The notes: a model not told the origin generated them from the letters alone. 24,441 nucleotides of DNA from Alphaproteobacteria bacterium (GCA_003695135.1 RFIR01000027.1:1-24441); one strand, 5' to 3'. Shown: positions 8,911-23,488, counted from the first letter of the stretch. A program made the numbers and translations.

Positions 8911-9228
8911 TCAGGCGCAGTAGATCTGGTAGAGCGTGCGAAGGATCTCGGCCGCCTCGGGGCTGTCGAGGGAATAGAAGACCGATTGCGCCTGCCGGCG
9001 CGTCGACACCATCCGGTGCGCCCTCAGGATCGCCAGCTGCTGGGAAATGGCCGACTGGCTCAGCCCGATTGCCTCCTGCAGCTCGTGCACCGATTTCTCT
9101 CCACCCAGCAGCTGGCACAGGATCAGCAGGCGATTGTTGTTGGCCATCACCTTCAGGAGGTCTCCGGCCCGATCGGCATTGTCGCGCAGTTTCTGCAGTT
9201 CGGTCGAACCGATATCCATCATGTCCAT
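8911..9228 (-). CDS. ArsR/SmtB-family repressor of the persulfide-sensing SqrR/BigR/SoxR/sHdrR type (~105 aa)
   Basis: LLKVMANNNRLLILCQL..EKSVHEL..GLSQSAISQQLAILR..VSTRRQAQSVFYSL..LYQIYCA. One Cys in helix 2 (C38) and one at the C-terminus (C104), the pair characteristic of this subfamily. The start is one of three close ATGs (9228, 9222, 9219). Confidence 0.9.
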   Translation of the reverse strand: MDMMDIGSTELQKLRDNADRAGDLLKVMANNNRLLILCQLLGGEKSVHELQEAIGLSQSAISQQLAILRAHRMVSTRRQAQSVFYSLDSPEAAEILRTLYQIYCA

Positions 9229-9337
9229 CTCTGCCCACCTTCCGGTCCGACCGGACCCTGCGGCTCGCGCATTCGTGAACGCACCTGCCGGCATGTCCGT
9301 GCCACCTGCATAGCAGCTTGACCTTTCACGCTTTTTA

Positions 9338-9355
9338 ATATTCAGTTATGATAAT
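9338..9355 (+). promoter_or_regulatory. Candidate repressor operator overlapping the putative -10 of dsrE2-tusA
   Basis: ATATTCAGTTATGATAAT; imperfect palindrome AT-N2-TCA-N4-TGA-N2-AT; 15/18 identical to the dsrA promoter site. Confidence 0.65.
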
Positions 9356-9393
9356 AAACCAAATTACAGATCTTGCAATGGGAGGCCGCACCG

Positions 9394-9897
9394 ATGCTGG
9401 ACAGCAGCGAGCTCGAGAATGCCAAGAGCATGTCGATCATCGTCACCAAGGGGACGCTCGACTGGGCCTATCCGCCCTTCATCCTTGGCACTACCGCCGC
9501 GGCCATGGATGTCAAGGTGTCGATGTTCTTCACCTTCTACGGGCTGCCGCTGCTCTTGAAGGATCTGGATCTGAAGCTCAGCACCCTGGGCAATCCGGCG
9601 ATGAAGATGCCGATGATGGGGATGCACATGGCGATGCCGAACTTCATGCCGATCATTCCCGGCGTGGACCGGCTGGCGTCGAACATGATGAAGAACCTGA
9701 TGAAGAAGAAGGGCGTGGCCTCGATCGAGGATCTGCGCGAGGCGGCGGTGGATAGCGATGTGCGCATGATTGCCTGCCAGATGACACTCGACCTGTTCGA
9801 GCTGAAGACCGAGGACATGATCGACGGCATCGAGCTGGGCGGCGCGGCGACCTATATGGAGACCGCGCTGAAATCCGACATCAACCTGTTCATCTGA
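9394..9897 (+). CDS. dsrE2: DsrE2-type sulfurtransferase (DsrE/DrsE family, 167 aa)
   Basis: ATG at 9394 after GGAGG. SIIVTKGTLDWAYPPFIL, FFTFYGL and RMIACQMT match the DsrE2 pattern. Confidence 0.88.
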   Translation: MLDSSELENAKSMSIIVTKGTLDWAYPPFILGTTAAAMDVKVSMFFTFYGLPLLLKDLDLKLSTLGNPAMKMPMMGMHMAMPNFMPIIPGVDRLASNMMKNLMKKKGVASIEDLREAAVDSDVRMIACQMTLDLFELKTEDMIDGIELGGAATYMETALKSDINLFI

Positions 9898-9935
9898 CAC
9901 GTACGGCACCTGCCTGCGACGAGAAAGGAGAAGCG

Positions 9936-10160
9936 ATGGCCGAACATGTGCTGAATGCGGAGGGCCTGAACTGCCCCCTCCCGATCCTGAAGGCGAAGAA
10001 GGCGCTGAAGGACGTGCCGCCGGGCGAGATCCTCAAGATCAGCGCCACCGATCCCGGCTCGGTTGCCGATTTCGCCGCCTTCTGCAATCAGACCGGCAAC
10101 GAGCTGGTGAGCTCCACGACCGAGGGCAACGTATACAGGTTCGAGATTCGCCGTACCTGA
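9936..10160 (+). CDS. tusA: TusA sulfur carrier
   Basis: AAGGAG RBS; LNAEGLNCPLPILKAKKAL with the CPxP motif; ATDPGS; 74 aa. Confidence 0.95.
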   Translation: MAEHVLNAEGLNCPLPILKAKKALKDVPPGEILKISATDPGSVADFAAFCNQTGNELVSSTTEGNVYRFEIRRT

Positions 10161-10180: not shown

Positions 10181-10213
10181 GCCCCGGGCGGTTCGGCCCG
10201 GGGCTTTCTTATT
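10181..10213 (+). terminator. Rho-independent terminator after tusA, possibly bidirectional with dsrN
   Basis: GCCCCGGGC-GGTTCG-GCCCGGGGC followed by TTTCTTATT; sits directly between the convergent tusA and dsrN stops. Confidence 0.85.
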
Positions 10214-11585
10214 TCCGGCACCGCCTGACATGGGCGACGAAGCGGTCGACCCACGGGCAGCCATCGGTGTGACGCAGATGGCAAAAGCCGGCCAGAAGGT
10301 TTCCGACCACGATCCCGTCATGCCGGCCGTCCACCCCATGCCCGCGCAGCATGTCGCGGGCAAAGCGCGTGTCGGCCGGCAGCCCCTCGAGGCTGGCATA
10401 GTGAAACTCGTGCGCGCGCGCCTCGGCATTCTCCACCCCCCAGGGCTGGCCGGGGCGGGTGCGAAATGCGGTGTAGCCGCGCCCCTGCGGGCGGGCGTGC
10501 ATCACCGCCTCGGCCGCGATGGCACCGACCATCGGCCAGCGTTTCCCGTCCCAGCCGATGGCCCGGCAGAGATACATCAGCCCGCCGCATTCGGCATAGG
10601 CCGGCATGCCGTTCGCGATGGCCTCGCGGATTGCCGCGCGCAGATCGGCATTGGCCGCCAGCGCCTCGGCATGGGTTTCGGGAAATCCGCCGCCGATGAA
10701 CAGACCCTCGGCCGGCGGCAATACGCGATCCGATAGCGTGTCGAAGGGCACGAGCTCGGCCCCCGCCCGCGCGAAGGCCTCCAGATCGTCGGGATAGTAG
10801 AAGCCGAAGGCGGCATCGCGGGCGATCGCGATGCGCACCGGTTGGCCCGTGGCGGTCATGGCCGGTGCGGGGCAGGGGGGCACGGCGAGCTCCGGTGCGG
10901 CGCGCGCGATCTGCATCAGCCGCGCCACATCGAGCGAGTCGGCGAGGATGCGGCCGATCTCGTCCAGATGTGCGGCCCGTTCGCCGCTTTCGGCCGGGGT
11001 GGTCAGGCCCAGATGCCGCTCGCCGATCTCCAGCGCCCGGTTGCGCCGCACCGCGCCCAGCACCGGCAGGTCGCAATAGAGCTCCACCGCTGCGCGCAGC
11101 TTGGCCTCGTGCCGCGCGCCCCCGGTTCGATTGAGGATGACGCCGGCGATATCGACCGCCGCGTCGAAGCGGCGATAGCCCAGGAGCAGCGGGGCGATGC
11201 CGCGGGTCATGCCGGTGGTGTCGATGACTAGCACCACCGGGGCGCGCATCAGCTTGGCGAGCTCGGCATTGGAATCGGCGCCTTCCGGGTCGAGCCCGTC
11301 ATAAAGCCCCTTGTTGGCCTCGATCAGCGCCAGCGCGCCCTCGGGCGTGCGCCGGGCGAGCAGGCCAAGCAGCTCCGCCCGCCCCATGGTGTTGAAGTCG
11401 AGATTGTAGCAGGGTCTGCCCGCCGCCAGCCCCAGCCACATCGGGTCGATGTAATCGGGTCCCTTCTTGAAGGGCTGGACCTGCTGCCCGGAGGCGCGCA
11501 GCGCCGCCGCCAGCCCGGCGGTGATCACGGTCTTGCCCGAGGATTTGTGCGCCGCGGCCAGAAGCAGGCGGGGGGGTGCGTTCAT
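10209..11585 (-). CDS. dsrN: DsrN, cobyrinate a,c-diamide synthase-like siroheme amidase
   Basis: AAAHKSSGKT P-loop, FKKGPDYIDPMWL, IEANKGLYDG, glutamine amidotransferase GGGFPE / YAECGGLMYL / HEFHY; last gene of the dsr operon. Confidence 0.93.
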   Translation of the reverse strand: MNAPPRLLLAAAHKSSGKTVITAGLAAALRASGQQVQPFKKGPDYIDPMWLGLAAGRPCYNLDFNTMGRAELLGLLARRTPEGALALIEANKGLYDGLDPEGADSNAELAKLMRAPVVLVIDTTGMTRGIAPLLLGYRRFDAAVDIAGVILNRTGGARHEAKLRAAVELYCDLPVLGAVRRNRALEIGERHLGLTTPAESGERAAHLDEIGRILADSLDVARLMQIARAAPELAVPPCPAPAMTATGQPVRIAIARDAAFGFYYPDDLEAFARAGAELVPFDTLSDRVLPPAEGLFIGGGFPETHAEALAANADLRAAIREAIANGMPAYAECGGLMYLCRAIGWDGKRWPMVGAIAAEAVMHARPQGRGYTAFRTRPGQPWGVENAEARAHEFHYASLEGLPADTRFARDMLRGHGVDGRHDGIVVGNLLAGFCHLRHTDGCPWVDRFVAHVRRCRK

Positions 11586-12592
11586 GCCGCGGCCGGTAGG
11601 CCGTCACGGTCCCGATCCGCCCACATCCGCTCGGCCAGCGCCTGCGCGGCCGGGATCGTGTCCGCCCGGCCCAGAAGCTTCAGCGCAACGGCGAGGGTTC
11701 CGGTGACCGCCGCCTCGCCATAGGCGCTTGTGCGTTCCCCGCGCCACACCGCGACCAGATCGGCGGGATCCATGGCGCTGTCGGCCGGCTGATGCGGATC
11801 GGCGAGGATCGCGGGCCAGGTCTCGATTTCCGGCTCGGCCGCGCCATGGGTGGTCCAGACCACGGTCGGCTTGTTGGGCCGGCGCTCGATCTCGCCGCCC
11901 TCGCCGCGGAAGACCGCCATGTGCGGCTGGCCGAGCAGCCGCCCCGCGCCGGCATGGATGTCCATGAAGCCGCGATGAAAGATGCCCTGCATCATCGCCG
12001 GCGCCCCGAACGGGTTGAGCATGCGCGAGAAGCTGTGCACCGGCGAGCGCAGGCCGAGGATCGGTCTGAGCTCGATCAGATGGCGCAGCACCGGGCTCAG
12101 CACTTCAAGCGGCACATAGGCGAAGTTGCGGGCGCGGATGTGATCGGCGGCCTCGGCCAGGCTCTGCGCCGGGGCAAGCCCGAGGCGGCGGAGCACGTCG
12201 GAGGTGTAGACGCGGCCCGGCGTGTGGCCCTCGGTGCCATGCATGAAGACGCGGATCCCGGCGCCGGCCAGCGTCAGCACCGAGAGCAGGAACCAGGGCA
12301 GCTGGATGCGCTTGCCGGCATAGGAGGACCAGTCGAGATCGACATCGGGAATCGCGGCCGGCAGCGCGATGGTCGCGCGCGTGCCGAGGGTGAAGCCGGC
12401 GATCTCCTCCGGCGTCTCCTCCTTCAGCCGCAACAGCATCAGGAAGGCGCCGATCTGTTCGGGCAGGGCCTCGCCGCGCAGGATCATCGCCATCGCCTCG
12501 CGCGCCTCCTCCAGCGTCAGCGCGCGCGACTTGGTCTTGCCGCGGCCGAGAATGGCGACGAATTTCGCAAATGGGTGGGCTTCGAGCGACAT
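11582..12592 (-). CDS. YbiB/TrpD2-like protein (glycosyltransferase family 3 / anthranilate phosphoribosyltransferase fold), 336 aa
   Basis: ATG at 12592 after GGAGG (track start 12913 overlaps dsrP). ILGRGKTKSRALTLEEA, QIGAFLMLLRLKEET, DLDWSSYAGKR, LRPILGLRSPVHS, FRGEGGEIERRP. ATGA overlap with dsrN. Confidence 0.85.
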   Translation of the reverse strand: MSLEAHPFAKFVAILGRGKTKSRALTLEEAREAMAMILRGEALPEQIGAFLMLLRLKEETPEEIAGFTLGTRATIALPAAIPDVDLDWSSYAGKRIQLPWFLLSVLTLAGAGIRVFMHGTEGHTPGRVYTSDVLRRLGLAPAQSLAEAADHIRARNFAYVPLEVLSPVLRHLIELRPILGLRSPVHSFSRMLNPFGAPAMMQGIFHRGFMDIHAGAGRLLGQPHMAVFRGEGGEIERRPNKPTVVWTTHGAAEPEIETWPAILADPHQPADSAMDPADLVAVWRGERTSAYGEAAVTGTLAVALKLLGRADTIPAAQALAERMWADRDRDGLPAAA

Positions 12593-12605
12593 GGCGTCCT
12601 CCGGT

Positions 12606-13820
12606 TCAGGCGGATTGCACCCTTGCCTGCGCCGCAAGATTGGCATCGCCGAGATTGGTGGGCAAGATGCGCAGCACCTTGACCCCGAGCAGTGTAAGCG
12701 CCGCCGCGATGCCGACGCCGCCCAGCCCCAGCGCGATCTCGCTCCAGCTCGGCGTGTAGGCGGCGACCACCCCGTCCTGAAAGCTGCTGGAGGTAACGAA
12801 ACCGGGGAAGATCTCCAGCGGATAGGCCTGCCCGCCGATGATGATGACATAGAGCTGCGCGAAGCCACCGGCGATGACGAAGAGCGAGGCCAGAACCGCG
12901 TCTCCAATGCCAAGGTTCTTGCTGCCGAAGATCATCGCCATCGGCAGCAGACCGCCCAGGATCACCTGCCCGCCCCAGAAAAGCCATGTGTAAAGACCGC
13001 CGGTTCTGAGAATGAACGCCTCGATCCCGGCATGTTCCTGCGCGTAAAGGTTGGTCAGATGCTGCACGGCGGTGAAGTACAGCACCGCCGCCACGAACAG
13101 CGCCAGGAGCCTGGCGAGGCGGGTTACCAGCCCGAGACCCAGCGGGCGGTTGCCCAGGCGGGAGAGTGTCACCAGAACGATGATGAACACGGCGAGCCCG
13201 AAGCTGAACGACATGGCGATGAACAAGGGCGCCATGATCGCCGCGTCATAGGCGGGCCGGGCCACCAGCCAGCCGAAGATCGAGCCGGTGCCGGTGGTCA
13301 GCGCCAGCCGCCACAGGAAGGCAAGCAAGCCTGCCGCCGGCACGTAGCGCCTTGCCCCGCCGCGCGACATCTGCACGAAGAGATAGAGCGCGGTGACCAC
13401 GATGAAGCCGGTATAGAGGAAGATGTTCCAGGCGAAGATGGAGGAGAAGTTGTAGGTGGTCATCGCCACGATCAGCCGGTCGGCCCGGCCGAGATCGAGC
13501 ACCAGCACCGCCAGCCCGCCAACCAGCAGCGCGATCGCCAGAAGACCCGAGAGCCGGGACAGCGGCTTGTAGGCGCTGCGGCCGAAGACCGAGGCGATGG
13601 AGGCGACGTTGAGCGCGCCGGATGCAGCGACGATGAGGAAGATGGCGAAGATGTGCGGCGTGCCCCAGACGATCTGGTTGGTCATGCCGGTGACGATGTG
13701 GCCGCCTTCCTCGATCACCACCACGGCGATCAGACCGGCGAGCAGCGCAAGCGCGACGATGGCCGCCGCGCCGGCGAGGCCGCGGCTGAGGCCGATTTCG
13801 CGATAGATCGTGCGTTCCAT
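12606..13820 (-). CDS. dsrP: DsrP, NrfD/PsrC-family integral membrane subunit (404 aa)
   Basis: ATG at 13820 with AGGAGG upstream. GMTNQIVWGTPH, LVLDLGRADRL, NFSSIFAWN; about ten hydrophobic segments; follows dsrO. Confidence 0.92.
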   Translation of the reverse strand: MERTIYREIGLSRGLAGAAAIVALALLAGLIAVVVIEEGGHIVTGMTNQIVWGTPHIFAIFLIVAASGALNVASIASVFGRSAYKPLSRLSGLLAIALLVGGLAVLVLDLGRADRLIVAMTTYNFSSIFAWNIFLYTGFIVVTALYLFVQMSRGGARRYVPAAGLLAFLWRLALTTGTGSIFGWLVARPAYDAAIMAPLFIAMSFSFGLAVFIIVLVTLSRLGNRPLGLGLVTRLARLLALFVAAVLYFTAVQHLTNLYAQEHAGIEAFILRTGGLYTWLFWGGQVILGGLLPMAMIFGSKNLGIGDAVLASLFVIAGGFAQLYVIIIGGQAYPLEIFPGFVTSSSFQDGVVAAYTPSWSEIALGLGGVGIAAALTLLGVKVLRILPTNLGDANLAAQARVQSA

Positions 13821-13833
13821 CCTCCGCGCCCTC

Positions 13834-14589
13834 CTAGAGCCCCGCGTAGCGCACGCCCGGATCGAGTCCGAGATCGTCGCGCAGCGCCATGCTTGGATAT
13901 TGCGCAAGAGCCTTCGAGATCTCGCTTTCGGGATCGTTGAGATCGCCGAACAGGATCGCGTTATGGCCCGTGGCCGCGCAGGCCTCGACACAGGCCGGCA
14001 CCCGCCCGGCATCGACCCGGTGCACGCAAAGGGTGCAGCTTTCCACCGTGCCGCGCCCGCGCGGGGCGAAGCTGCGCTTGTCGGCGTCGGGCACCGTCTC
14101 GTGGATGAAGCTGCGCGCCTTGAACGGGCAGGCCATCATGCAGTAGCGGCAGCCGATGCAGATATGCTTGTCCACCAGCACGATGCCGTCGGCACGCCTG
14201 AACGAGGCGCCGGTCGGGCAGACATCGACACAGGGCGGGGATTCGCAATGCTGGCACATCACCGGCAGGGACAGCTCGCGCCCGGTGGCGATCTCGGTCA
14301 GATCGACCTTGCGGATCCACTGCGCATCGGTCTCGGGATGGCCGGTGTCGTGCCAGCCGTTTTCCTGCGAACACGCGCTCACGCAGGCGCTGCAATCGGG
14401 ATCGCACTTGCCGGCATCGACCAGCAACCCCCAGCGATGGTTTGCATCCGCCTCGGCCTCGGCGCTGCCGCCGAATGCGGTCAGCGTCACGCCGGGGGCC
14501 AACGTGATCGTTGCCACCGCCGCGCCTGCGCGCAGGAAATCGCGGCGCGAGGGCGGGACGGCATCGGGTCTCGGGGTAGGCTGCTTCAT
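13834..14589 (-). CDS. dsrO: DsrO, Tat-exported 4Fe-4S ferredoxin subunit
   Basis: SRRDFL Tat motif; CQHCESPPCVDVCP, CIGCRYCMMACP, CTLCVHR..PACVEAC. Confidence 0.95.
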   Translation of the reverse strand: MKQPTPRPDAVPPSRRDFLRAGAAVATITLAPGVTLTAFGGSAEAEADANHRWGLLVDAGKCDPDCSACVSACSQENGWHDTGHPETDAQWIRKVDLTEIATGRELSLPVMCQHCESPPCVDVCPTGASFRRADGIVLVDKHICIGCRYCMMACPFKARSFIHETVPDADKRSFAPRGRGTVESCTLCVHRVDAGRVPACVEACAATGHNAILFGDLNDPESEISKALAQYPSMALRDDLGLDPGVRYAGL

Positions 14590-15089
14590 TCCGTCGCCTC
14601 CGGCTGCGGGGCAAAGGCCGTGCCCTTTTGCAACGCTTCCAGATAATCGGCGATCATTGTCGCGGTCTCGGGTGTATTGCCCATGGCGCGCGCCTTCTCG
14701 ATCACCCGCAGACCGCGCGCATCGGGCGTCGCCTTGTGACAGGTGAAGCAGTCGATGCTGACCGCGGCATATTCATGACAGACCGCGCAGAAGCCGCCGG
14801 GATCGCCTGCCGCGACCGGCCGGGCATCCGGGCCGGTTACGGCGTGGCAGACGAGGCACTGGCGCAGGCTGGCCCTGACCGTGCGATCGCCCATGCGCAG
14901 CGTCAGGTCGCGGTCGTGGCGCAAGAGATCGGGGTGGTGCCTGCGCCAGTATTCGTTGCCTTCCGGGTGCGGCGTGCCGATGGCCTTTGGCACCTCCGGC
15001 CACAGCGCCCGGTCCTGCCCGGCCGATGCCGCGGCGGCCAGCAGCACCGGCAGCGCGATCAGGGCCAGCAGATGCGGCAATCGTATCAT
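14586..15089 (-). CDS. dsrJ: DsrJ, triheme cytochrome c
   Basis: Signal peptide; CLVCH, CAVCH, CFTCH; HPDLLRHDRDLTLRMG; ATGA overlaps with both neighbours. Confidence 0.92.
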   Translation of the reverse strand: MIRLPHLLALIALPVLLAAAASAGQDRALWPEVPKAIGTPHPEGNEYWRRHHPDLLRHDRDLTLRMGDRTVRASLRQCLVCHAVTGPDARPVAAGDPGGFCAVCHEYAAVSIDCFTCHKATPDARGLRVIEKARAMGNTPETATMIADYLEALQKGTAFAPQPEATE

Positions 15090-17035
15090 TCACCGAGCCC
15101 CATCTTGATATAGCCGGTGGGGCAGACATCGGCGCAGATGTGACAGCCGATGCAGCGCGTGTAGTCGGTATAGACATAGCGGCCCACCGTGCGGTCCTTC
15201 TTCGGCACGCGATGCACCGCATCCTGGGGGCAGAAGATCACGCAGTTGTCGCATTCGAAGCACATCCCGCAGGACATGCAGCGCTCGCCTTCCTTGCGCG
15301 CCTGCTCCTCGGTCAGCCCGATGATGCGCTCCTGGAAATTGCCGAGGACCTGATCGCCCTCGAAATGAATCTCCTGGCGCTGTTCGCGCGGGACAAAGTT
15401 GAAATGCCCCTTGAACAGCTCGGTATGCGGAATGATCTGGGTATCGGAGCGATCCTCGTAATTGTGGATGGCGAAATCCGACTCCGATGTGCCGCGCTTT
15501 TGAAGATGATCATAGGGCGCGGGGTCCTTGTGGCGGCGGTGCAGCTCCTCGAGCAGATTGAAATGGTGCACATCCACCTTCGGGCGGCGCTCGATCGTGC
15601 CGTCATCGAGAAAGTCCGAGATCACCTCGGCCCCGATCCGGCCATGACCGATGGCGGTGGTCAGAAGATGCGGGCGCAGGATGTCGCCGCCGGCGAAATG
15701 CTTCTCGCGCCCCTTGACCGGGGTCGAGGGGGTGGCGTCGATGAAGCCGCGCCCGTTGTCGAGACCCTCCAGCCCGGTCAGATCGCCCATCTGGCCGATG
15801 GCGGCGATGATGATGTCGGCCTCCAGCACGAATTCGGTGCCCTCGCGCGGGATCGGCTTCATGCCGTCCATGTCGCATTCGCACATCCTCAGGCCCACCG
15901 CCTTGCCGGTCTCGTCCTTGATCACCTCCAGCGGCATCACCCCGCCCCTGATCTTGATGCCCTCGCGCATGGCATCCTCGCGCTCGCGCTCGGCCGCGGT
16001 CATCTTCTCGACGGGAAACAGCGAGGTCAGCGTCGCGGTCATCCCCTCGCGCACCAGCGAGCCGGCCACGTCATGCCCGGCAAAGTTGATCAGCGCCCCG
16101 TCGGGGTGTTCGGGGACATTGACCTTGGAGATATGGCCCAGCCGGCGGGCCACCGAGGCGACATCGACCGAGGTATCGCCGCCGCCGACCACCACCACCC
16201 TGCGCGCGGTGCCGAAGACATAGCCCTGATTGAAGGCGTCGAGAAACTCGATGCCGTTGATGCAGTTCTCGGTGCCCTCCCAGCCCGGGATCGGCAGATC
16301 GCGCCCCTTCTGCGCGCCCAGCGCCCAGTAGATGGCATCATAGGCCTCTTCCAGCGCCTCGACGGTAATGTCGGTGCCGACGCGGGTGCCGGTCCTGACC
16401 TCGACGCCCAGATCGATGATGCGCCCGATCTCCTTGTCGAGCATCTCGCGCGGGGTGCGGTAGCCGGGGATGCCGTAGCGCATCATCCCGCCCAGCTCCT
16501 CATGGGCCTCGAAGACGGTCACCGCATGGCCATCGAGGCGCAGGAAATAGGCTGCCGACAGGCCGGCCGGCCCGCCGCCCACCACCGCGACCTTCTTGCC
16601 GGTATCGGGTCCCGGCTCGGGCAGCTTGACGTGGTTCTCGTTGGCCCAGTCGCCGACATATTGTTCGACCGCATTGATGCCGACGAAATCATCGACCTCG
16701 TTGCGGTTGCAGCCCGCCTCGCAGGGCGCCGGGCAGACCCGGCCCATGGTGGCGGGGAAGGGGTTGGCCGCGGCCATGCGCTGGAAGGCGTATTCCTGCC
16801 AGCTCATGCCCTCGACGGGCGGCTTGTCCATGCCGCGCGCGATCGCCAGCCAGCCGCGGATTTCGTGGCCCGAGGGGCAGGAGCCCTGGCAGGGCGGGGT
16901 CTTGTGGACATAGGTCGGGCATTTGTAGGAATGATCGGCCTGAAAGATCCGCTCCTCCAGATCCCAGTCCTCGGCAGTCTGACCCTCGCTGAAGCGCCGG
17001 AAGGTGGGTTTCGGCTGGTTCGCCATCTCGTTCAT
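15086..17035 (-). CDS. dsrL: DsrL iron-sulfur flavoprotein (NAD(P)H:acceptor oxidoreductase, oxidative type)
   Basis: GGAGGA RBS; CPTYVHKTPPCQGSCPSG, GRVCPAPCEAGCNR, GGGPAG, YGIPGYR, GGGDT, C-terminal CMSCGMCFECDNC and CIGCHICADVCP. Confidence 0.95.
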   Translation of the reverse strand: MNEMANQPKPTFRRFSEGQTAEDWDLEERIFQADHSYKCPTYVHKTPPCQGSCPSGHEIRGWLAIARGMDKPPVEGMSWQEYAFQRMAAANPFPATMGRVCPAPCEAGCNRNEVDDFVGINAVEQYVGDWANENHVKLPEPGPDTGKKVAVVGGGPAGLSAAYFLRLDGHAVTVFEAHEELGGMMRYGIPGYRTPREMLDKEIGRIIDLGVEVRTGTRVGTDITVEALEEAYDAIYWALGAQKGRDLPIPGWEGTENCINGIEFLDAFNQGYVFGTARRVVVVGGGDTSVDVASVARRLGHISKVNVPEHPDGALINFAGHDVAGSLVREGMTATLTSLFPVEKMTAAEREREDAMREGIKIRGGVMPLEVIKDETGKAVGLRMCECDMDGMKPIPREGTEFVLEADIIIAAIGQMGDLTGLEGLDNGRGFIDATPSTPVKGREKHFAGGDILRPHLLTTAIGHGRIGAEVISDFLDDGTIERRPKVDVHHFNLLEELHRRHKDPAPYDHLQKRGTSESDFAIHNYEDRSDTQIIPHTELFKGHFNFVPREQRQEIHFEGDQVLGNFQERIIGLTEEQARKEGERCMSCGMCFECDNCVIFCPQDAVHRVPKKDRTVGRYVYTDYTRCIGCHICADVCPTGYIKMGLGE

Positions 17036-17057: not shown

Positions 17058-18602
17058 TCAGCCGGCTGCCTTGTCCTCGGTTTCGTCCTCGTCTGTCTCC
17101 TGCCCGGTCAGGATGATCGCGTTCGACACCATCTGGTGGACGGAGACGATGGAATCCATCTCGTAGCCGAACTCGGGCATCACCTTGGAAAACTGCGTCT
17201 TGCAGATGGCGCAGATCGCGGCCATGTGGGTGACGCCGTGTTCCTCGGTCACCTGCTGCAGCGCCGTCATGCGCGGCGTGGCGCCCTTCTTGCGCAGCTC
17301 CATCAGATCGTCGGTCAGCAGTCCGCCGCCGCCGCCACAGCACAGCGTCGATTCCATGATCGTGTCGCGGTCCATGTCGTAGAAATGGTTGCAGACCGCA
17401 CGCAGGATGTTGCGCGGGATCTCGAACTGGCCGCCGGGCTTGTCTCCCATGCGGCTGGCGCGCGCGACATTGCAGCTGTCATGGAAGGTCAGTCGGATGT
17501 GATCGTTCCTGGAGCGGTCGAATTTCAGCTTGCCGCGCTCGATCAGATCCCAGGTGTATTCGCAGATATGCTGCGGCACCGGGTAGTTCGGATCGAGAAA
17601 GTCGAACGGCCCGGCCAGCGTGTTGAGGTAGGAATAGGCCACCCGCCAGGCGTGGCCGCATTCACCGAAGATGATGCGCCTGACGCCCAGATCCTCGGCC
17701 GCCTTGCGGATCCTGAGCGCCAGCTCGCGCATGTTCTCGTAGGAGCCGATGAACAGCCCGAAATTCGCCGCTTCCGAGGCATAGGAGGAAAGTGTCCAGC
17801 TCGCGCCCGCCTCGTGGAACACCTTGGCATAGCCGATCAGCCCGTCGATATGGGGTTCGGCAAAGAAATCGGCCGAGGGGGTAACCAGCAGTATCTCGGC
17901 GCCCTTCTCGTCGAGCGGAAGGCGCACCGAGATGCCGGTATCGTCCTCGATATCCTCTTCCAGATCCTCGAGAGTTGCCCGCAACGCCTTGGGATTCAAT
18001 CCAAGATTGTTGCCGATATCCTTAACCTTGCCGATGATCTCATTGGCGTATTTCTGGCCGATGCCGACGCTGTCGAGGATCTCGCGCGCGGCCATGGTGA
18101 TCTCGGCGGTATCGATGCCATAGGGGCAGAAGACCGAGCAGCGCCGGCATTCCGAGCACTGGTGGTAATAGGAATACCATTCCTGCAGCACGTCCTCGGT
18201 CAGGTCACGCGCGCCCACCAGCCAGGGAAAATGCTTGCCGGCGAAGGTGAAATAGCGCCGGTAGATCGAGCGCAGCAGGTCCTGGCGCGCCACCGGCATG
18301 TTCTTGGGATCCCCGGTGCCAAGAAAATAGTGGCACTTGTCGGTGCAGGCACCGCATTTGACGCAAGTATCGAGATAGACCTGAAAGGCGCGGTTCTTGC
18401 GGGCCAGCTCGGCCATCTTGGCCAGCGCCACCTCCTTCCAGTTCTCCACCAGCTCGCCGGGAAAGCCCAGCTTGGCCTGATGCTCGGGTGCGGCGGTGAA
18501 CGGCTTGAGCCCCTCCATCGCCCCGCATTTGAGGTCCGGTATCTCCAGCGGGTCGGGGACGAAGCGCGGACCGTCGGGATGGTCCATGTCGAGCGTGGCC
18601 AT
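17058..18602 (-). CDS. dsrK: DsrK, HdrD-like catalytic subunit
   Basis: CVKCGACTDKC, CSECRRCSVFCP, GECGH, TFHDSCN, CCGGGGG, CAICK. Confidence 0.95.
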   Translation of the reverse strand: MATLDMDHPDGPRFVPDPLEIPDLKCGAMEGLKPFTAAPEHQAKLGFPGELVENWKEVALAKMAELARKNRAFQVYLDTCVKCGACTDKCHYFLGTGDPKNMPVARQDLLRSIYRRYFTFAGKHFPWLVGARDLTEDVLQEWYSYYHQCSECRRCSVFCPYGIDTAEITMAAREILDSVGIGQKYANEIIGKVKDIGNNLGLNPKALRATLEDLEEDIEDDTGISVRLPLDEKGAEILLVTPSADFFAEPHIDGLIGYAKVFHEAGASWTLSSYASEAANFGLFIGSYENMRELALRIRKAAEDLGVRRIIFGECGHAWRVAYSYLNTLAGPFDFLDPNYPVPQHICEYTWDLIERGKLKFDRSRNDHIRLTFHDSCNVARASRMGDKPGGQFEIPRNILRAVCNHFYDMDRDTIMESTLCCGGGGGLLTDDLMELRKKGATPRMTALQQVTEEHGVTHMAAICAICKTQFSKVMPEFGYEMDSIVSVHQMVSNAIILTGQETDEDETEDKAAG

Positions 18603-18608
18603 GGCGCG

Positions 18609-19331
18609 CTACCTTTCCAGCTCGGCCGCCCAGGGCGCGAGATGGCGCACCTCGCGCGGATTGTCGACCTGATTGCGCGTCGGGCTGAAGAACACCCCCG
18701 GCACGTGCAGGAGCTTGGAGATCGGGAACACCAGCATCAGCACCAGCACCAGCGTCAGATGCACCAGCAGGATCGGGTCGGCGGGCAGCGGATTGATCTG
18801 AAGCCGGAACAGGCCGAGGAAGAACGCCTTGACCGCGATGATGTCGGGCCGGGCGACGAAGCGCATGCCCAGCCCGCTCAGCCCGATCGCCACCAGCAGC
18901 GCCAGCATCAGATGGTCGGAGGGATTGGTGATGTAGCGGATGCGTTCGACCAGGACCCGGCGCGCCCACAGCCCGGCCAGCCCCGCCACCATCGCGAAGC
19001 CGGCATAGATGCCGTAGGGCTGGATGAAGCGGACCCAGAACCAGACCGGCTCGGTGAAGTACCGCAGATGCCGCATCAGCACCAGCAGCAGCGCGAAGTG
19101 GAACACCCAGCCGAACAGCCAGATCCATTTGTTGGACCTGAACAGGCTTTCGAACAGCACCACCTCGCGCGCCATGCGCAGAACCACCCCGCCCCGCGTG
19201 ACCGGGGCCGGCGTGGTCGGGATCTTCAGTGGCGCAGGCGTACGTGCGTATCTGGCGATCTTCCACGCCAGCCCCACCACCAGAAAGGCCGTGGCGGCGT
19301 AGAACAGCAGCGCATAGATCACGGACAGCAC
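18609..19331 (-). CDS. dsrM: DsrM, NarI-like diheme cytochrome b
   Basis: GTG start after GAGGAGG; PAPLKIPTTPAP, FESLFRSNKW, His ligands in FH..MRH and VH..KLLH. Confidence 0.95.
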   Translation of the reverse strand: MLSVIYALLFYAATAFLVVGLAWKIARYARTPAPLKIPTTPAPVTRGGVVLRMAREVVLFESLFRSNKWIWLFGWVFHFALLLVLMRHLRYFTEPVWFWVRFIQPYGIYAGFAMVAGLAGLWARRVLVERIRYITNPSDHLMLALLVAIGLSGLGMRFVARPDIIAVKAFFLGLFRLQINPLPADPILLVHLTLVLVLMLVFPISKLLHVPGVFFSPTRNQVDNPREVRHLAPWAAELER

Positions 19332-19387
19332 GCGGATTCCTCCTCGCCTTTTTTTATGATTATTGTTTTTTTACAGTCGGTTGGCCG

Positions 19388-19720
19388 TCAGACACATCCG
19401 GTCGGCTTGGGCAGCCCAGCGATCTTGCAGGCCTGTTTCGCGGGCCCGTAGGGGAACAGCTCGTAGAGATACTTGTTGTTGCCCTTCTCCGGCCCCATCG
19501 ACTTCTTGATCGCCTTGATCAGTACCCGAACCGCCGGGGCAATCTGGTATTCCTCGTAATAGTCGCGAAGGAAGTTCACCACCTCCCAGTGCTCGTCGGT
19601 CATCTCGATGTTTTCCGACTTGGCGATCTCCTCGGCCAGTTCCTTCGACCAGTCCGAGAGATTGATGATGTAGCCTTCCTCGTCGGCCGGGATCGTGTGG
19701 CCGTTGACCTTGTATTCCAT
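19388..19720 (-). CDS. dsrC: DsrC sulfur carrier (110 aa)
   Basis: ATG at 19720 after GAAGGAG; DEEGYI..W, HWEVVNFLRDYY, LFPYGPAKQACKIAGLPKPTGCV with both conserved C-terminal Cys. Confidence 0.97.
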   Translation of the reverse strand: MEYKVNGHTIPADEEGYIINLSDWSKELAEEIAKSENIEMTDEHWEVVNFLRDYYEEYQIAPAVRVLIKAIKKSMGPEKGNNKYLYELFPYGPAKQACKIAGLPKPTGCV

Positions 19721-19770
19721 CTCGCTTGCTCCTTCTTCGCCGCGCCCGCCGGGGCGCCGCATTCACATCT

Positions 19771-20079
19771 TCACAGCCAGGCCTGGGTGCGGTCGTGTTC
19801 TGCCACCAGATCGACGAAGCCGCGATAGTCGACGCCGGTCACTCCCGCGATCATCCGGTCCTCGGGCAGGCCGCGCGCGGCGATATCGGGCGTCAGCACG
19901 TAGAGCTTCACGGCCCCCGCCTTCGCCGCGACCCTGTCCGACAGCGCGGTGCCCGACAGCGCGCCATAGACGCCGTCCTCGATCATCAGCACCGCGTCGC
20001 CCGGCCGGCAATGGGCCAGGCAGCTTTCCAGCGTGCGGGTCTCGAAGGGCGACTTGTTGACGGTGTGCAGCGTTGACAT
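19771..20079 (-). CDS. dsrH: DsrH (TusB-like)
   Basis: LHTVNKSPF, LMIEDGVY, DIAARGL, YRGFVDLVAEH. Confidence 0.95.
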   Translation of the reverse strand: MSTLHTVNKSPFETRTLESCLAHCRPGDAVLMIEDGVYGALSGTALSDRVAAKAGAVKLYVLTPDIAARGLPEDRMIAGVTGVDYRGFVDLVAEHDRTQAWL

Positions 20080-20088
20080 CGGCAGCCC

Positions 20089-20499
20089 TCAGAAACTCAG
20101 GATCACGTCCTGTTCGGCCATGATCGCGGCCATCTCTTCGCGGCTGACGACGCGGATCGAGGGCTTTTCGGCCCAGTCGTCATCCTCGTCCTCATAGGTG
20201 ATCTCTTGCAGATCCTCCGCGCTCAGGCCGCGTTCTTCCAGCGACTCGCGCTCGACATAGAGCCTGGTGACCTCATAGTCGCCCAGCGCGCGGAAGGTGG
20301 GCGAGAAGTTCTTCACCCCGATCGCGGCGGTATCCTGACCGCTGGTCAGCTGGAACACGCCGTCATCGAGAAAGGCGAGGCTGACATCCTGATCGAAGGC
20401 CGCCCCGATCAGCACCACCTCCAGCGCCTCCAGCGCATAGATGGTGCCATAGGGCGCCTTGCGGTTGACGTAGAGGAATTTCTTCACGTCCTCAGACAT
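20089..20499 (-). CDS. dsrF: DsrF (TusC-like)
   Basis: KKFLYVNRKAPYGTIYALEALE, FLDDGVFQL, SLEERGL. Confidence 0.95.
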   Translation of the reverse strand: MSEDVKKFLYVNRKAPYGTIYALEALEVVLIGAAFDQDVSLAFLDDGVFQLTSGQDTAAIGVKNFSPTFRALGDYEVTRLYVERESLEERGLSAEDLQEITYEDEDDDWAEKPSIRVVSREEMAAIMAEQDVILSF

Positions 20500-20511
20500 T
20501 TGTCCCCGCCC

Positions 20512-20904
20512 TCAATCGCCGAACATCACCAGACGGTCGGTCTGGATCGCCATCTCGATCAGCTGGCCGAGGCCCGAGATGCGAAAGCCCTCGGCGATGT
20601 TGTCGGCATCCTTGCCCTGCCGCTTCGCCTCGTTGGCATCCAGCAGCCCCCGCCGCTGCGCCGCGGCGATGCAGACCACAAGATCGGTGCCGTGCTCGGC
20701 AGCCAGCGCGGTCCAGTTTTCCTGGATGTTGCGCTCGTCCTGCGGCGGTACGCTGAGCCGGGTCGAGACATTGACCCCGTCATGGTAGAAGAACACCCGC
20801 GGCACCTCATGCCCGGCGGCAAGGGCGGCGCGCACGAAATTGTAGGCGCTGTCGGCCGCCTGATGCGTGTAGGGGCCTTCGCTGACCACGACACCGATCT
20901 TCAC
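20512..20904 (-). CDS. dsrE: DsrE (TusD-like) sulfurtransferase
   Basis: GTG start; EGPYTHQA, VFFYHDGV, active-site VVCIAAAQRRG, SGLGQL. Confidence 0.95.
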   Translation of the reverse strand: MKIGVVVSEGPYTHQAADSAYNFVRAALAAGHEVPRVFFYHDGVNVSTRLSVPPQDERNIQENWTALAAEHGTDLVVCIAAAQRRGLLDANEAKRQGKDADNIAEGFRISGLGQLIEMAIQTDRLVMFGD

Positions 20905-20913
20905 CGTACCACC

Positions 20914-21999
20914 TCAGAAATGGATGTGTGCGGAGTGGTTCATGGTGTGGCGCGCGCCGGTCCAGGTATCGAGGTGATGCTTGGTGAAGGCGAGCCCCGT
21001 CATCTCGAAGAACCGGTTCCAGCCGATGCGCTCGATCCACTCGCCCAGCCGCTCCCAGTCCTTGGCGTCCTCCTTGTAGGTGGCGACGATCTTGCGGACC
21101 ACTTCCCTGACCTCCGGCCAGTGCGGCGGGTTGTTGGGCAGGTTGGCGACGGCCAGCTTGTGGAAGGTCGGCTTTGAGCGCGCATTGGAATGCTTGCCGC
21201 CGACCCAGATGGCGATCTTGGTCGATTCCTTGCCGTTGATCTGCATCGGCGGGCAGGGCGGATAGCAGGCGCCGCAGCAGACGCATTTGCGCTCGTCAAC
21301 CTCCAGGCTCGGCTTGCCGTTGACCAGCGCCGGGCGGATCGCCGCAACCGGGCAGCGCGCGACCACCGCGGGGCGTTCGCAGACATTGGCCACCAGATCG
21401 TGGTTGATCTTTGGCGGTTTGGTGTACTGCACGTTGATCGCGATATCGCCCTGCCCGCCGCAGTTGATCTGGCAGCAGGATGTGGTGATGCGCACCCGGT
21501 TGGGCATCTCCTCGTGGATGAATTCCTCGTGCAGCATGTCCATCAGGCTCTTGACCACGCCCGAGGCATCGGTGCCGGGGATGTCGCAATGCAGCCAGCC
21601 CTGGGTATGGCTGATCATCGAGACCGAGTTGCCGGTACCGCCGACCGGGAAGCCCTCCTCCTGCAGCTTCGAGATCAGCGCCGGCACCTTGGCGAATTCC
21701 GAGACCATGAACTCGATGTTCGAGCGGGTGGTGAAGCGGACATGACCCTCGGCGAATTCGTCGGCGATGTCGCACAGCTTGCGGATGGTGAACACGTCCA
21801 TCTGCCGCTGGGTGCCCGCGCGCACCGTCCAGATCTCGTCGCCCGACTTGGCCACGTGATGCAGCACCCCCGGGCGCGGCCGGTCGTGCCAGGCCCAGTT
21901 GCCATAGTTCTTCTTCATCACCGGGTGCATGAACTGGAAGGGGTCGGGGACGCCGACCTCGTCCGGCATGCGGGGCTTGTCCTGGGCTTTCTGATCCAT
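20914..21999 (-). CDS. dsrB: Reverse-type dissimilatory sulfite reductase beta subunit
   Basis: NYGNWAWHDRPRPGVLHH, TQGWLHCDIPGTDASG, TSCCQINCGG, CVCCGACYPPCP, WERLGEWIERIGW. Confidence 0.97.
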   Translation of the reverse strand: MDQKAQDKPRMPDEVGVPDPFQFMHPVMKKNYGNWAWHDRPRPGVLHHVAKSGDEIWTVRAGTQRQMDVFTIRKLCDIADEFAEGHVRFTTRSNIEFMVSEFAKVPALISKLQEEGFPVGGTGNSVSMISHTQGWLHCDIPGTDASGVVKSLMDMLHEEFIHEEMPNRVRITTSCCQINCGGQGDIAINVQYTKPPKINHDLVANVCERPAVVARCPVAAIRPALVNGKPSLEVDERKCVCCGACYPPCPPMQINGKESTKIAIWVGGKHSNARSKPTFHKLAVANLPNNPPHWPEVREVVRKIVATYKEDAKDWERLGEWIERIGWNRFFEMTGLAFTKHHLDTWTGARHTMNHSAHIHF

Positions 22000-22057
22000 C
22001 CTGTCCTCCCTCGGCCGCCCGGCTGGTGCCGGGCAGCACCGAAATTCCTGCCTCGCT

Positions 22058-23347
22058 TCAGTCGGTGTCCGATCCGACCGTCATGCCGGCCGCGTGCGCC
22101 TTGCGCTCGAACCACTTGGCGGCCTCGTCGTCGAAATCGTCCGTGCGCACGAAGCAGGAGGTCCGCGGGTGGTTGACCATGTTCGGGTCGGGGTCGATGC
22201 CAAGCGCCTCGAGGAAGGCCGGCAGTCCGATCCGGTCGATGGTCTCGCCGATGCGCTCGTGCTCCAGCGCGTTGTCGGCGAAGAACTCCACCATGTTCTC
22301 GGCCAGCTCGGTGAGCTTCTCGAAATCCTCATCCGTCTCCAGCTTCATGAAGGGGATGATCATGGTGCCCATCAGATCGCCGATCTTCAGCGCCCGCTTG
22401 CCGCCGACCAGAATCGACACGCCCTTGTCGTCGCCGGGGCTCAGCGCCTTGGTCATGACGTTGATGCAGTGCATGCAGCGCACGCAGGAGCGGTTGTCGA
22501 TCTCCAGCGTGTCATCGTCATTGAGGCTGATGGCGCGGGTCGGGCACATCGAGACCACCGTGTCGATGGTGTATTTGCGGCCCTTCTCGGCGATGTGCTC
22601 CTTGACCTTGTCCTGATCGATCTTGATGTCGTCGCGCCAGGTGCCGATCACCGCGAAATCGGAGCGGTGGATGGCGTTCACGCAGTCATTGGCGCAGCCG
22701 GAGAACTTGAACTTGAACTTGTAGGGCAGCGCCGGGCGGTGCATCTCGTCGAGCAGCGTGTTGATGATCGTCCGGTGCGCCCGGACCTCGTCATAGCAGG
22801 ACTGCTCGCAGCGGGCGTGGCCGACGCAGCTCATCGCCGTGCGCAGCGCGGGACCGGCGCCGCCGAGATCGAAGCCGAGCTCGTTGAGCTCGTCGAACGC
22901 CTTCTGGGTGTTCTCGGTGGTGCAGCCCTGGAACATGATGTCGCCCGACTGGCCGTGGAAGGCGATCAGCCCCGAACCATGGCGTTCCCAGATGTCGCAC
23001 AGCTTGCGCAGGACGTCCGTGGTGTAGTGATAGCCCGCCGGCGGCATCACGCGGAGCGTGTGGAACTCCTTCGATTCGGGAAACTTGTCGGCGACCTCGG
23101 AAAAGCGCGGGATGATGCCGCCGCCATAGCCGAACACCGAGACCGTGCCGCCTTTCCAGAAGCCGAGCTGCTCCTGATAGGAATGATTGAGCTGGCCCAG
23201 AAGGTCGTTCATCATCTTCCGGTTGCCCTCGGAGCCCTCGTCGCGCAGGCGCTTGAGCCCTTTCACGAAGCTCGGCCACGGGCCATCCTCCAGCGGATCG
23301 AGCATCGGTGTCGGGTGCTTGCCGTTGGTGGGATCGCCATCTTTCAT
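22058..23347 (-). CDS. dsrA: Reverse-type dissimilatory sulfite reductase alpha subunit (429 aa)
   Basis: ATG at 23347 after GGGAG (track start 23602 is too long). TPMLDPLEDGPWPSFV, FWKGGTVSVFGYGGGIIPRF, SCVGHARCEQSC, FKFKFSGCANDC, CVRCMHCIN. Confidence 0.97.
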   Translation of the reverse strand: MKDGDPTNGKHPTPMLDPLEDGPWPSFVKGLKRLRDEGSEGNRKMMNDLLGQLNHSYQEQLGFWKGGTVSVFGYGGGIIPRFSEVADKFPESKEFHTLRVMPPAGYHYTTDVLRKLCDIWERHGSGLIAFHGQSGDIMFQGCTTENTQKAFDELNELGFDLGGAGPALRTAMSCVGHARCEQSCYDEVRAHRTIINTLLDEMHRPALPYKFKFKFSGCANDCVNAIHRSDFAVIGTWRDDIKIDQDKVKEHIAEKGRKYTIDTVVSMCPTRAISLNDDDTLEIDNRSCVRCMHCINVMTKALSPGDDKGVSILVGGKRALKIGDLMGTMIIPFMKLETDEDFEKLTELAENMVEFFADNALEHERIGETIDRIGLPAFLEALGIDPDPNMVNHPRTSCFVRTDDFDDEAAKWFERKAHAAGMTVGSDTD

Positions 23348-23470
23348 GTCGTCTCTCCCTGAAAGCCCGGTTCGTCGTTTCGCAGTCCTCGGTGCGGCCG
23401 TCGCCGCGGTGGTGTTCCCTGTCCATCCGGGGCGAGCGCGGAGGTTCGACGCTTCCCCATTGATTTGAAC

Positions 23471-23488
23471 ATTATGATAGTTGAATAT
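23471..23488 (-). promoter_or_regulatory. Candidate repressor operator in the divergent dsrA/tauD-like promoter
   Basis: Minus strand reads ATATTCAACTATCATAAT, 15/18 identical to 9338-9355, within an AT-rich promoter patch. Confidence 0.65.

What the first reader, a model, noticed from the sequence alone, without database searches (positions are those of the whole stretch)
8911..23488. SqrR/BigR-type repressor plus a shared 18-bp operator at both sulfur promoters: candidate persulfide-controlled rDsr regulon
Seen: ATATTCAGTTATGATAAT (9338-9355, +) upstream of dsrE2-tusA, and ATATTCAACTATCATAAT (23471-23488, -) upstream of dsrA. They are 15/18 identical, 14 kb apart, in the same orientation relative to their genes, and each overlaps a plausible -10 (TATGAT / TATCAT). 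The core ATTC-N8-TAAT is one base from ATTC-N8-GAAT, which I recall as the Rhodobacter SqrR consensus. The two-Cys ArsR gene is divergent from the first site. Established: this subfamily releases DNA on persulfide-induced Cys crosslinking and controls sqr, sox and shdr genes. I know of no characterised dedicated repressor for an rDsr operon.
Basis: partly seen in the sequence, partly recalled or inferred. Interest (0 to 1): 0.8.

Follow-up and report, generated by a model that had tools for sequence, protein, structure and literature searches.

The report
Shared SqrR-like operator at rDsr promoters
A two-cysteine ArsR-family (SqrR/BigR/HlyU-type) regulator gene sits beside a sulfur-oxidation (rDsr) gene cluster whose two promoters carry the same conserved 16-18 bp box, so it is probably a persulfide-released repressor of the whole pathway, for which I found no published dedicated regulator.

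Summary
The two 18-mers are at the stated coordinates and are 15/18 identical. Each is sense-oriented to its gene: -54 from dsrE2 and -139 from dsrA.

They are not chance. A weight matrix built only from orthologous loci ranks them first and second in the whole 3.69 Mb assembly (35.4 and 32.3 bits; next hit 25.2).

The core ATTC(A)-N8-TAAT(A) recurs at the same two promoters in orthologous loci with conserved gene order (tauD-like <- | -> dsrAB..N -> <- tusA <- dsrE2 | -> arsR). Six of seven arsR-adjacent loci carry it exactly at dsrA.

It lies in the -35/-10 spacer at dsrA but 15-17 nt downstream of the -35 at dsrE2. That argues for a factor site rather than a core-promoter element.

The regulator keeps both sensing cysteines of SqrR (C41/C107) and two of SqrR's four base-contacting residues (Q61, Q66). 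It is the only ArsR of this type detected in the genome.

More distant dsr loci carry perfect SqrR boxes (ATTC-N8-GAAT) upstream of dsrA.

Binding, repression and persulfide response are inferred, not shown. The right half-site always has T where SqrR's box has G, and three loci have the box without an adjacent arsR.

Verdict: a well-supported new member of a known regulator kind with a new target. I found no report of it in the literature searched.

The parts
8911..9228 (-). arsR: a 105-aa dithiol ArsR/SmtB regulator of the SqrR/BigR/HlyU type. An alternative start is at 9219; the 127-aa ORF starting at 9294 is probably too long.
   Evidence: Pfam HTH_5, E 1.7e-12. Best NCBIfam model is BigR at 85 bits, below its 155-bit cutoff. 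PDB hits: HlyU 82 bits, SqrR 80 bits, BigR 72 bits. Cys38 and Cys104 align with SqrR C41 and C107. Orthologs are 99-105 aa.
9338..9355 (+). Operator 1 (core ATTC-N8-TAAT at 9340-9355), 38 nt upstream of the dsrE2 ATG and about 110 nt upstream of arsR.
   Evidence: Conserved in 13 orthologous dsrE2 promoters. Matrix score 35.4 bits, rank 1 in the genome. Overlaps a candidate -10 for dsrE2 (TATGAT) and one for arsR (TATTAT).
9318..9323 (+). -35-like TTGACC of the dsrE2 promoter, 15 nt upstream of TATTCA.
   Evidence: CTTGAC(C/T) is conserved 15-17 nt upstream of the box in all orthologous dsrE2 promoters that were printed.
9394..10160 (+). dsrE2 (9394-9897) and tusA (9936-10160), the sulfur-relay genes.
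   Evidence: NCBIfam DsrE2 equivalog at 219 bits, above its 210-bit cutoff. Pfam TusA, E 2.4e-22.
10209..23347 (-). The rDsr operon: dsrA (22058-23347), then B, E, F, H, C, M, K, L, J, O, P, a YbiB/TrpD2-like gene (from 11582 to about 12590), and dsrN (10209-11585).
   Evidence: Pfam and NCBIfam hits. Same gene order in orthologous loci.
23471..23488 (-). Operator 2 (core 23471-23486). The A of ATTC is at -139 from the dsrA ATG, and the site edge is 37 nt from the TauD-like ATG.
   Evidence: The same core sits at -137 to -179 in 8 orthologous dsrA promoters. Matrix score 32.3 bits, rank 2 in the genome.
23526..24441 (+). TauD/TfdA-family dioxygenase-like gene, cut by the window end, divergent from dsrA and sharing the operator-2 intergenic region.
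   Evidence: Pfam TauD, E 2.7e-23. In L080 and L081 the same position holds tauD-like, a 65-aa ORF, DUF6967 and cysG, divergent from dsrA.

Best explanation
The 105-aa ArsR-family protein encoded at 8911-9228 is a SqrR/BigR/HlyU-type dithiol sensor. As a reduced homodimer it most likely binds an asymmetric 16-18 bp box, (T/C)ATTCA-N7-TAATA. The box occurs once in the arsR/dsrE2 intergenic region and once in the tauD-like/dsrA intergenic region. At dsrE2 the box covers the -10/start region, 15-17 nt after a conserved CTTGACC. At dsrA in most orthologs it fills the spacer between a -35 (TTTACA) and a -10 (TATAAA). Bound protein would therefore block RNA polymerase and repress the dsrE2-tusA sulfur relay and the dsrABEFHCMKLJOP-N operon together. 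It may also repress arsR itself and the divergent tauD-like operon. When cytoplasmic sulfane sulfur (persulfide or polysulfide) rises, Cys38 and Cys104 would be bridged by a di- to tetrasulfide, as in SqrR and HlyU. The protein would then leave the DNA and the pathway that consumes sulfane sulfur would be induced. What is shown: the sequences, their conservation and positions, the conserved gene order, the cysteine alignment, and the alignment of the DNA-contact residues. What is inferred: binding, repression and the persulfide response.
For: 1. Non-circular genome scan. A weight matrix built from 21 orthologous sites, with the window's own sites excluded, ranks the two window sites first and second in the 3.69 Mb genome (35.4 and 32.3 bits; next 25.2).
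2. Conservation. ATTC-N8-TAAT is sense-oriented at -47 to -65 of dsrE2 in 12 loci, and 2 more loci have ATGC. It is at -137 to -179 of dsrA in 9 loci including the window. The inner N8 varies.
3. Linkage. Of 7 loci with arsR divergent from dsrE2, 6 have the exact box at dsrA. Two loci with dsrE2 next to dsrN but no arsR have CGAT in the right half.
4. Different registers. The box sits differently relative to the -35 element at the two promoters, so it is not a core-promoter element.
5. Family precedent. SqrR's box is ATTC-N8-GAAT, and Q66 makes most of the ATTC contacts. Q61 and Q66 are conserved here as Q58 and Q63.
6. Sensor residues. Both sensing cysteines align with SqrR, and the HlyU alignment likewise has a Cys in the same two columns.
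7. Single candidate. This is the only ArsR of this type detected in the assembly at E<=1e-3.
8. Wider pattern. Distant dsr loci carry perfect SqrR boxes upstream of dsrA or dsrE2. L135 and L137 carry SqrR-like regulators beside dsrE2-tusA.
Against: There is no experimental or expression evidence. The right half-site has T where SqrR's box has G in all 23 sites, so the two half-sites are unequal (ATTC versus ATTA), which is unusual for a homodimer. Two of SqrR's four base-contact residues differ here (R60 to S, K84 to Q). Three loci (L097, L104, L119) have the box at dsrE2 but a Sulf_transp gene instead of arsR next to it. L117 has arsR but GTAT at the dsrA site. The left half ACATTC at dsrA is conserved well beyond the arsR-linked clade and overlaps the -35, so part of its conservation may be due to promoter function. 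The orthologous promoters share ancestry, so the counts are not independent. The assembly is 84% complete.
Confidence: 0.62

Rival explanations
1. The box is a real operator, but a different transcription factor binds it (for example a LysR/CbbR-type protein or one encoded elsewhere). The ArsR would then control only itself, dsrE2-tusA or the sulfur transporter.
For: The core also fits the loose LysR/CbbR pattern TNA-N7-TNA, and cbbR lies within about 3 kb of arsR in the orthologous loci. Three loci keep the box without an adjacent arsR. The asymmetric half-sites are atypical for SqrR-type dimers.
Against: The window has no cbbR within 9 kb of arsR yet keeps both sites. The rhodanese-HigA gene is absent from the gene tables of the orthologous loci. 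LysR sites usually lie around -65, not over the -35/-10 spacer. The ATTC half-site matches the experimentally defined SqrR half-site, and the residue that contacts it is conserved.
Confidence: 0.15
2. The shared sequence is an AT-rich core-promoter feature inherited by descent, with no dedicated repressor. The similarity to SqrR's box is coincidental.
For: At dsrA the left half overlaps a conserved -35 (TTTACA) and is kept in loci whose right half has diverged. TATGAT within site 1 scores as a -10. Orthologous promoters are not independent samples.
Against: The same box sits at different registers relative to the -35 at the two promoters, which are not homologous to each other. Spacer positions ATTC and TAAT are conserved while the N8 between them drifts. 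Exact ATTC-N8-TAAT matches are concentrated at these two promoters: 19 of 41 hits in 1.09 Mb of dsr loci.
Confidence: 0.12
3. The ArsR binds the boxes but acts as an activator or anti-silencer, as HlyU does, rather than as a repressor.
For: HlyU is the best-scoring solved homolog (82 bits). It has S and Q at the two positions aligned with SqrR R60 and K84, as the window ArsR does (read from the alignment; window positions). The HlyU operator contains ATTCAG.
Against: The site positions, over the -35/-10 spacer and over the -10/start region, are typical of steric repression. HlyU's dyad (TAATT-N7-AATTA) has a different spacing. In a 68% GC genome these are short AT-rich boxes, not extended silenced regions.
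Confidence: 0.08

Closest known systems
SqrR of Rhodobacter capsulatus (PDB 6O8K-6O8O; DNA complex described in bioRxiv 10.64898/2026.05.15.721447)
   Same: Same ArsR/SmtB winged-helix fold family. About 41% identity over 95 aligned residues. Both sensing cysteines align (C41/C107 with Cys38/Cys104). Base-contact residues Q61 and Q66 and the SQQL helix motif are conserved. The operator has the same left half-site ATTC and the same 8-bp spacing. It is associated with sulfur-oxidation genes.
   Different: The right half-site is TAAT, not GAAT, in all 23 sites. Contact residues R60 and K84 are S and Q here. The target is the cytoplasmic rDsr pathway and the DsrE2-TusA relay rather than sqr, rhodanese or trxC. 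It is not an ortholog (about 41% identity).
HlyU of Vibrio cholerae and V. vulnificus (PDB 4K2E, 4OOI, 5ZNX, 3JTH)
   Same: Best-scoring solved homolog (82 bits). It is a persulfide-specific dithiol sensor with the same cysteine pair. It has S and Q at the positions aligned with SqrR R60 and K84, as the window protein does, by my reading of the alignment. Its operator contains ATTCAG.
   Different: HlyU activates virulence genes. Its operator dyad TAATT-N7-AATTA has a different spacing, and it has no link to dsr genes.
sHdrR and SoxR of Hyphomicrobium denitrificans (ArsR-type sulfane-sulfur-responsive repressors)
   Same: Alphaproteobacterial two-cysteine ArsR repressors encoded inside a dissimilatory sulfur-oxidation island. 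They bind several intergenic regions of that island and control sulfur-transferase genes (dsrE3C, tusA) together with the oxidation machinery (PMC10451225, PMC12423496).
   Different: They control the sHdr-LbpA and Sox systems, not rDsr. No consensus operator is stated in the passages of those papers that I retrieved. Their sequence relationship to this protein was not measured here.
BigR (Xylella/Agrobacterium; PDB 3PQJ/3PQK; NCBIfam NF040642)
   Same: It is the best NCBIfam model hit and has the same dithiol architecture.
   Different: The score of 85 bits is far below the 155-bit equivalog cutoff, so this is not a BigR ortholog. BigR controls a blh/sulfite-exporter operon.

Membership tests
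ArsR/SmtB winged-helix repressors | HTH_5 (PF01022) DNA-binding domain in a protein of about 100 aa | tested here: met
   PF01022 E 1.7e-12; NF033788 at 83 bits against a cutoff of 55.
Dithiol persulfide-sensing ArsR clade (SqrR/BigR/HlyU/YgaV) | Two conserved cysteines, one in helix alpha2 (SqrR C41) and one in C-terminal alpha5 (SqrR C107) | tested here: met
   Cys38 (ILCQL) and Cys104 (IYCA) align column for column with the SqrR and HlyU cysteines. Both are conserved in all 20 homologs examined.
Dithiol persulfide-sensing ArsR clade (SqrR/BigR/HlyU/YgaV) | No metal-binding motifs of the metalloregulators (alpha3 CVC, alpha5 His/Asp/Glu site) | tested here: met
   Read directly from the translation: a single Cys in ILCQLL, and no His in the C-terminal helix DSPEAAEILRTLYQIYCA.
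SqrR-type operator recognition | 16-bp box ATTC-N8-GAAT, contacted by R60, Q61, Q66 and K84 | tested here: inconclusive
   The left half ATTC and the 8-bp spacing are met. The right half is TAAT in all 23 sites. Q61 and Q66 are conserved, but R60 is S and K84 is Q.
SqrR-type regulators | DNA release on persulfide- or polysulfide-induced intramolecular Cys-Sn-Cys bridging | not testable with these tools
   Needs purified protein, GSSH or polysulfide treatment, mass spectrometry and EMSA or anisotropy.
BigR equivalog (NF040642) | Score at or above the curated cutoff of 155 bits | tested here: not met
   85.3 bits.
Local repressor of adjacent sulfur genes | Regulator gene syntenic with its targets, and its box conserved at the target promoters | tested here: met
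   The arrangement arsR | dsrE2-tusA beside dsrN is conserved in more than 10 contigs. The box is conserved at both promoters.

The most novel reading that the evidence does not exclude
Persulfide-gated ArsR repressors may be the general transcriptional switch of the rDsr pathway in Proteobacteria, carried out by at least two lineages that form a natural specificity pair. One is a HlyU-like lineage (Ser and Gln at SqrR positions 60 and 84) that reads the asymmetric ATTC-N8-TAAT box. The other is a SqrR-like lineage (Arg and Lys/Thr at those positions, as in L135 and L137) that reads the symmetric ATTC-N8-GAAT box found upstream of dsrA, dsrC-like or dsrE2 genes in other dsr loci. A single operator per promoter would couple the DsrE2-TusA relay, DsrAB and possibly siroheme supply (the tauD-like...cysG operon) to the cytoplasmic sulfane-sulfur level.
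Probability: 0.3. Interest if true: 0.7.

Novelty: new member of a known kind. Interest (0 to 1): 0.55.

Why it matters
rDsr is one of the two main cytoplasmic routes by which sulfur-oxidising bacteria convert stored or imported sulfane sulfur to sulfite. From my own knowledge, work on Allochromatium vinosum showed sulfide induction, DsrC binding near dsrA and a post-transcriptional role for DsrS. No dedicated transcription factor has been assigned, and none turned up in the literature searched.

This locus offers a concrete, testable candidate: a small soluble protein and two short defined operators. Conserved orthologous sets are available for cross-checks.

It would extend the SqrR/sHdrR/SoxR principle, in which sulfane sulfur itself is the inducer, to the third major oxidation module.

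It would also supply a naturally asymmetric operator variant. That variant would be useful for understanding half-site specificity in the ArsR family and for annotating rDsr regulation in metagenomes.

Tried and rejected
- Taxonomic relatives. None of the 40 relative genomes searched has a close ortholog; the best identity is 49%.
- The genome-contig scan gave only a Hyphobacterium MAG hit (59% identity) with no sulfur-gene context and no box.
- Six other Alphaproteobacteria have DsrA at 72-79% identity. Their dsr operons lack adjacent dsrE2-tusA-arsR. None has an exact ATTC-N8-(G/T)AAT upstream of dsrA, by my reading of the printed upstream regions. They carry related but different AT-rich boxes that I could not resolve into one motif.
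- RNA evidence. No RNA holder is listed; the DNA comes from a hot-spring metagenome study.
- Rfam found nothing in the window. The dsrA 5' leader does not fold better than shuffles (z = 0.97).
- The sigma-70 scan finds no promoter at site 2.
- Fur-box resemblance (GATAAT in the window's N8) was rejected because the N8 is not conserved in orthologs.
- The CbbR pattern TNA-N7-TNA fits, but it carries too little information to mean much.
- Other matrix hits in the genome (hemJ upstream on C542; AT-rich stretches on C31 and C493) are at the level expected by chance. ATTCA-N7-TAAT has no hit at a hemJ gene in G431.
- No close TrxC ortholog was found in this assembly.
- HlyU operator comparison: it shares ATTCAG, but the dyad spacing differs.
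- Handles for the L076 and L077 records were not available. For the P0018 contigs only the gene table was returned, without DNA.


Full report
**1. What is in the window**

The window comes from an 84%-complete, 68% GC alphaproteobacterial MAG. The DNA traces to a hot-spring metagenome study.

- arsR at 8911-9228 (-)
- dsrE2 at 9394-9897 and tusA at 9936-10160 (+)
- a convergent 13-kb operon on the minus strand, running from dsrA (22058-23347) through B, E, F, H, C, M, K, L, J, O, P and a YbiB/TrpD2-like gene to dsrN (10209-11585)
- a TauD-family gene divergent from dsrA, starting at 23526

**2. The observation**

Both 18-mers are where stated and are 15/18 identical.

The degenerate pattern has only these two hits in the window, even with 3 mismatches allowed; 0.01 are expected from shuffles. 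No other mismatch-free hit exists in the 3.69 Mb assembly. ATTCA-N7-TAAT occurs three times in the genome, against about one expected from base composition. The third copy is upstream of a hemJ-like gene.

**3. Orthologous loci**

Taxonomic relatives lack the regulator. The large protein collection, however, holds orthologs at 56-80% identity.

Their contigs show one conserved layout:
- tauD-like(-65 aa-DUF6967-cysG) <- | -> dsrAB...P(GT3)N -> <- tusA <- dsrE2 | -> arsR (-> Sulf_transp) <- mrp <- cbbR -> cbb genes

A metagenome scan with DsrK added 80 dsr loci.

*The dsrE2 promoters.* All printed arsR-dsrE2 intergenic regions align as CTTGAC(C/T)-N15-17-TATTCA-N7-TAATA. One has TATGCA. In all, 12 loci have exact ATTC-N8-TAAT at -47 to -65 and two have ATGC.

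*The dsrA promoters.* The same core sits at -137 to -179 in the window, G431 (a Rhodobacteraceae MAG), L080, L081, L098, L102, L108, L110 and L122. It is usually embedded as cTTTACATTC-N8-TAATATATAAA, that is, inside the spacer of a TTTACA-N16-TATAAA promoter.

Because the box occupies different registers relative to the -35 at the two promoters, it is not itself a core-promoter element.

Across 1.09 Mb of dsr loci there are 41 exact hits. Nineteen of them are at these two promoter positions, always in the sense orientation.

Positions that were not used for the search are also conserved: A5 in 19/23 sites, A9 in 20/23, T10 in 23/23 and A17 in 20/23.

**4. A non-circular test**

I built a weight matrix from the 21 orthologous sites only, leaving out the window's own sites. 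Scanned over the whole genome, it ranks the two window sites first and second (35.4 and 32.3 bits). The next hits score 25.2, 24.8 and 24.8.

**5. Linkage to the regulator**

Seven loci have arsR divergent from dsrE2. Six of them have the exact box at dsrA; L117 has GTAT in the right half.

L095 and L099 have dsrE2-tusA next to dsrN but no arsR. They have CGAT at the dsrA position and no box at dsrE2.

There are counter-examples. L097, L104 and L119 keep the dsrE2 box, but a Sulf_transp gene sits where arsR would be. In those genomes the regulator may be encoded elsewhere.

The left half ACATTC at dsrA is conserved beyond the arsR-linked clade, partly because it overlaps the -35.

**6. The protein**

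It aligns with SqrR at 80 bits (about 41% identity), HlyU at 82 bits and BigR at 72 bits. Cys38 and Cys104 fall on SqrR C41 and C107. Metal-site motifs are absent.

The SqrR-DNA crystal structure preprint names R60, Q61, Q66 and K84 as the base contacts, with Q66 making most of the contacts to ATTC. Here the aligned residues are S57, Q58, Q63 and Q81. They are identical in eight of the ten other arsR-linked orthologs; L110 and L117 have G at position 57. HlyU has Ser and Gln at the two changed positions, by my reading of the alignment.

The protein is below the BigR equivalog cutoff.

It is the only ArsR of this type detected in the assembly.

**7. Wider pattern**

Perfect SqrR boxes with AT-rich spacers lie upstream of dsrA in L095, L099, L133, L135, L136 and L153. 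One lies upstream of a dsrC-like gene in L135 and one upstream of dsrE2 in L143.

L135 and L137 carry a different ArsR (41-47% identity) beside tusA-dsrE2. It has SqrR-like Arg and Lys/Thr at the contact positions.

In G431 a further box lies about 22 nt before a trxC-like gene. trxC is a SqrR-regulon gene in R. capsulatus, and a published primer there shows ATTC-N8-GAAT abutting its start codon. G431 also has two ArsR paralogs, so that site cannot be assigned to one of them.

**8. Mechanism and alternatives**

The best reading is a persulfide-released repressor acting at both promoters. It possibly also acts on arsR and on the divergent tauD-like operon (one search shows a divergent -10 overlapping site 1).

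The alternatives are a different factor binding the box, a purely promoter-derived conservation, or HlyU-like activation. They are weighed in the Rival explanations section.

**9. Literature**

Searches returned SqrR, BigR, YgaV, HlyU, sHdrR and SoxR work on sqr, sox, shdr and virulence targets. None links this family to rDsr.

**10. Limits**

Everything beyond sequence, position and conservation is inferred. The orthologous promoters are related by descent. The MAG is incomplete. No expression data exist.

Noticed in passing
window 23526-24441; L080:2162-4958; L081:3651-6452: A conserved operon lies divergent from dsrA: a TauD-family dioxygenase-like gene, a 65-aa ORF, DUF6967 and cysG (siroheme synthase). 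It suggests that siroheme supply is co-located, and perhaps co-regulated, with DsrAB. The role of the TauD-like protein is unknown.
   Followed up: partly
window 11582 to about 12590 (-): A YbiB/TrpD2-like 'glycosyl transferase family 3' gene (NF006564, 381 bits) sits between dsrP and dsrN. It recurs at that position in many but not all dsr loci. I know of no assigned role for it in the Dsr pathway.
   Followed up: partly
G000:C420:1090-1107: A perfect palindrome TATTAG-N6-CTAATA lies about 100 bp upstream of a DUF302-like gene (assigned by eye from its N-terminal sequence). It is the third-best matrix hit (25.2 bits). TATATTAG-type boxes also precede ArsR paralogs in other Alphaproteobacteria (L006, L009, L034, L063). 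This may be a related operator class.
   Followed up: partly
G000:C542:13492-13509 (-): ATATTCATTAAGGATAAT lies about 45 bp upstream of a hemJ-like gene, sense-oriented, and scores 24.8 bits. ATTCA-N7-TAAT has no hit at a hemJ gene in G431. About one hit is expected by chance.
   Followed up: partly
L135:3190, L135:5005, L133:2323, L136:4943, L153:4855, L095:4880, L099:4879, L143:9222: Perfect SqrR-type boxes (ATTC-N8-GAAT with AT-rich spacers) lie upstream of dsrA, a dsrC-like gene or dsrE2 in more distant dsr loci. L135 and L137 have a SqrR-like ArsR convergent with tusA-dsrE2.
   Followed up: partly
L176 (G431:C18:824005-824020): An ATTC-N8-TAAT box lies about 22 nt upstream of a thioredoxin-2 (trxC-like) gene in the Rhodobacteraceae MAG that carries the orthologous dsr-arsR locus. 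It parallels SqrR control of trxC in R. capsulatus.
   Followed up: partly
L097, L104, L119 (dsrE2 / Sulf_transp intergenic regions): In loci without arsR, the YeeE/YedE-type Sulf_transp gene is directly divergent from dsrE2. Its promoter side carries a conserved ATATG(C/T)TAAT element that resembles the right half of the box.
   Followed up: no
window 23344-23460 (-): A 38-codon ORF starts just after operator 2 and ends in ATGA, overlapping the dsrA start codon. Its conservation was not checked, and the leader shows no significant RNA structure.
   Followed up: partly
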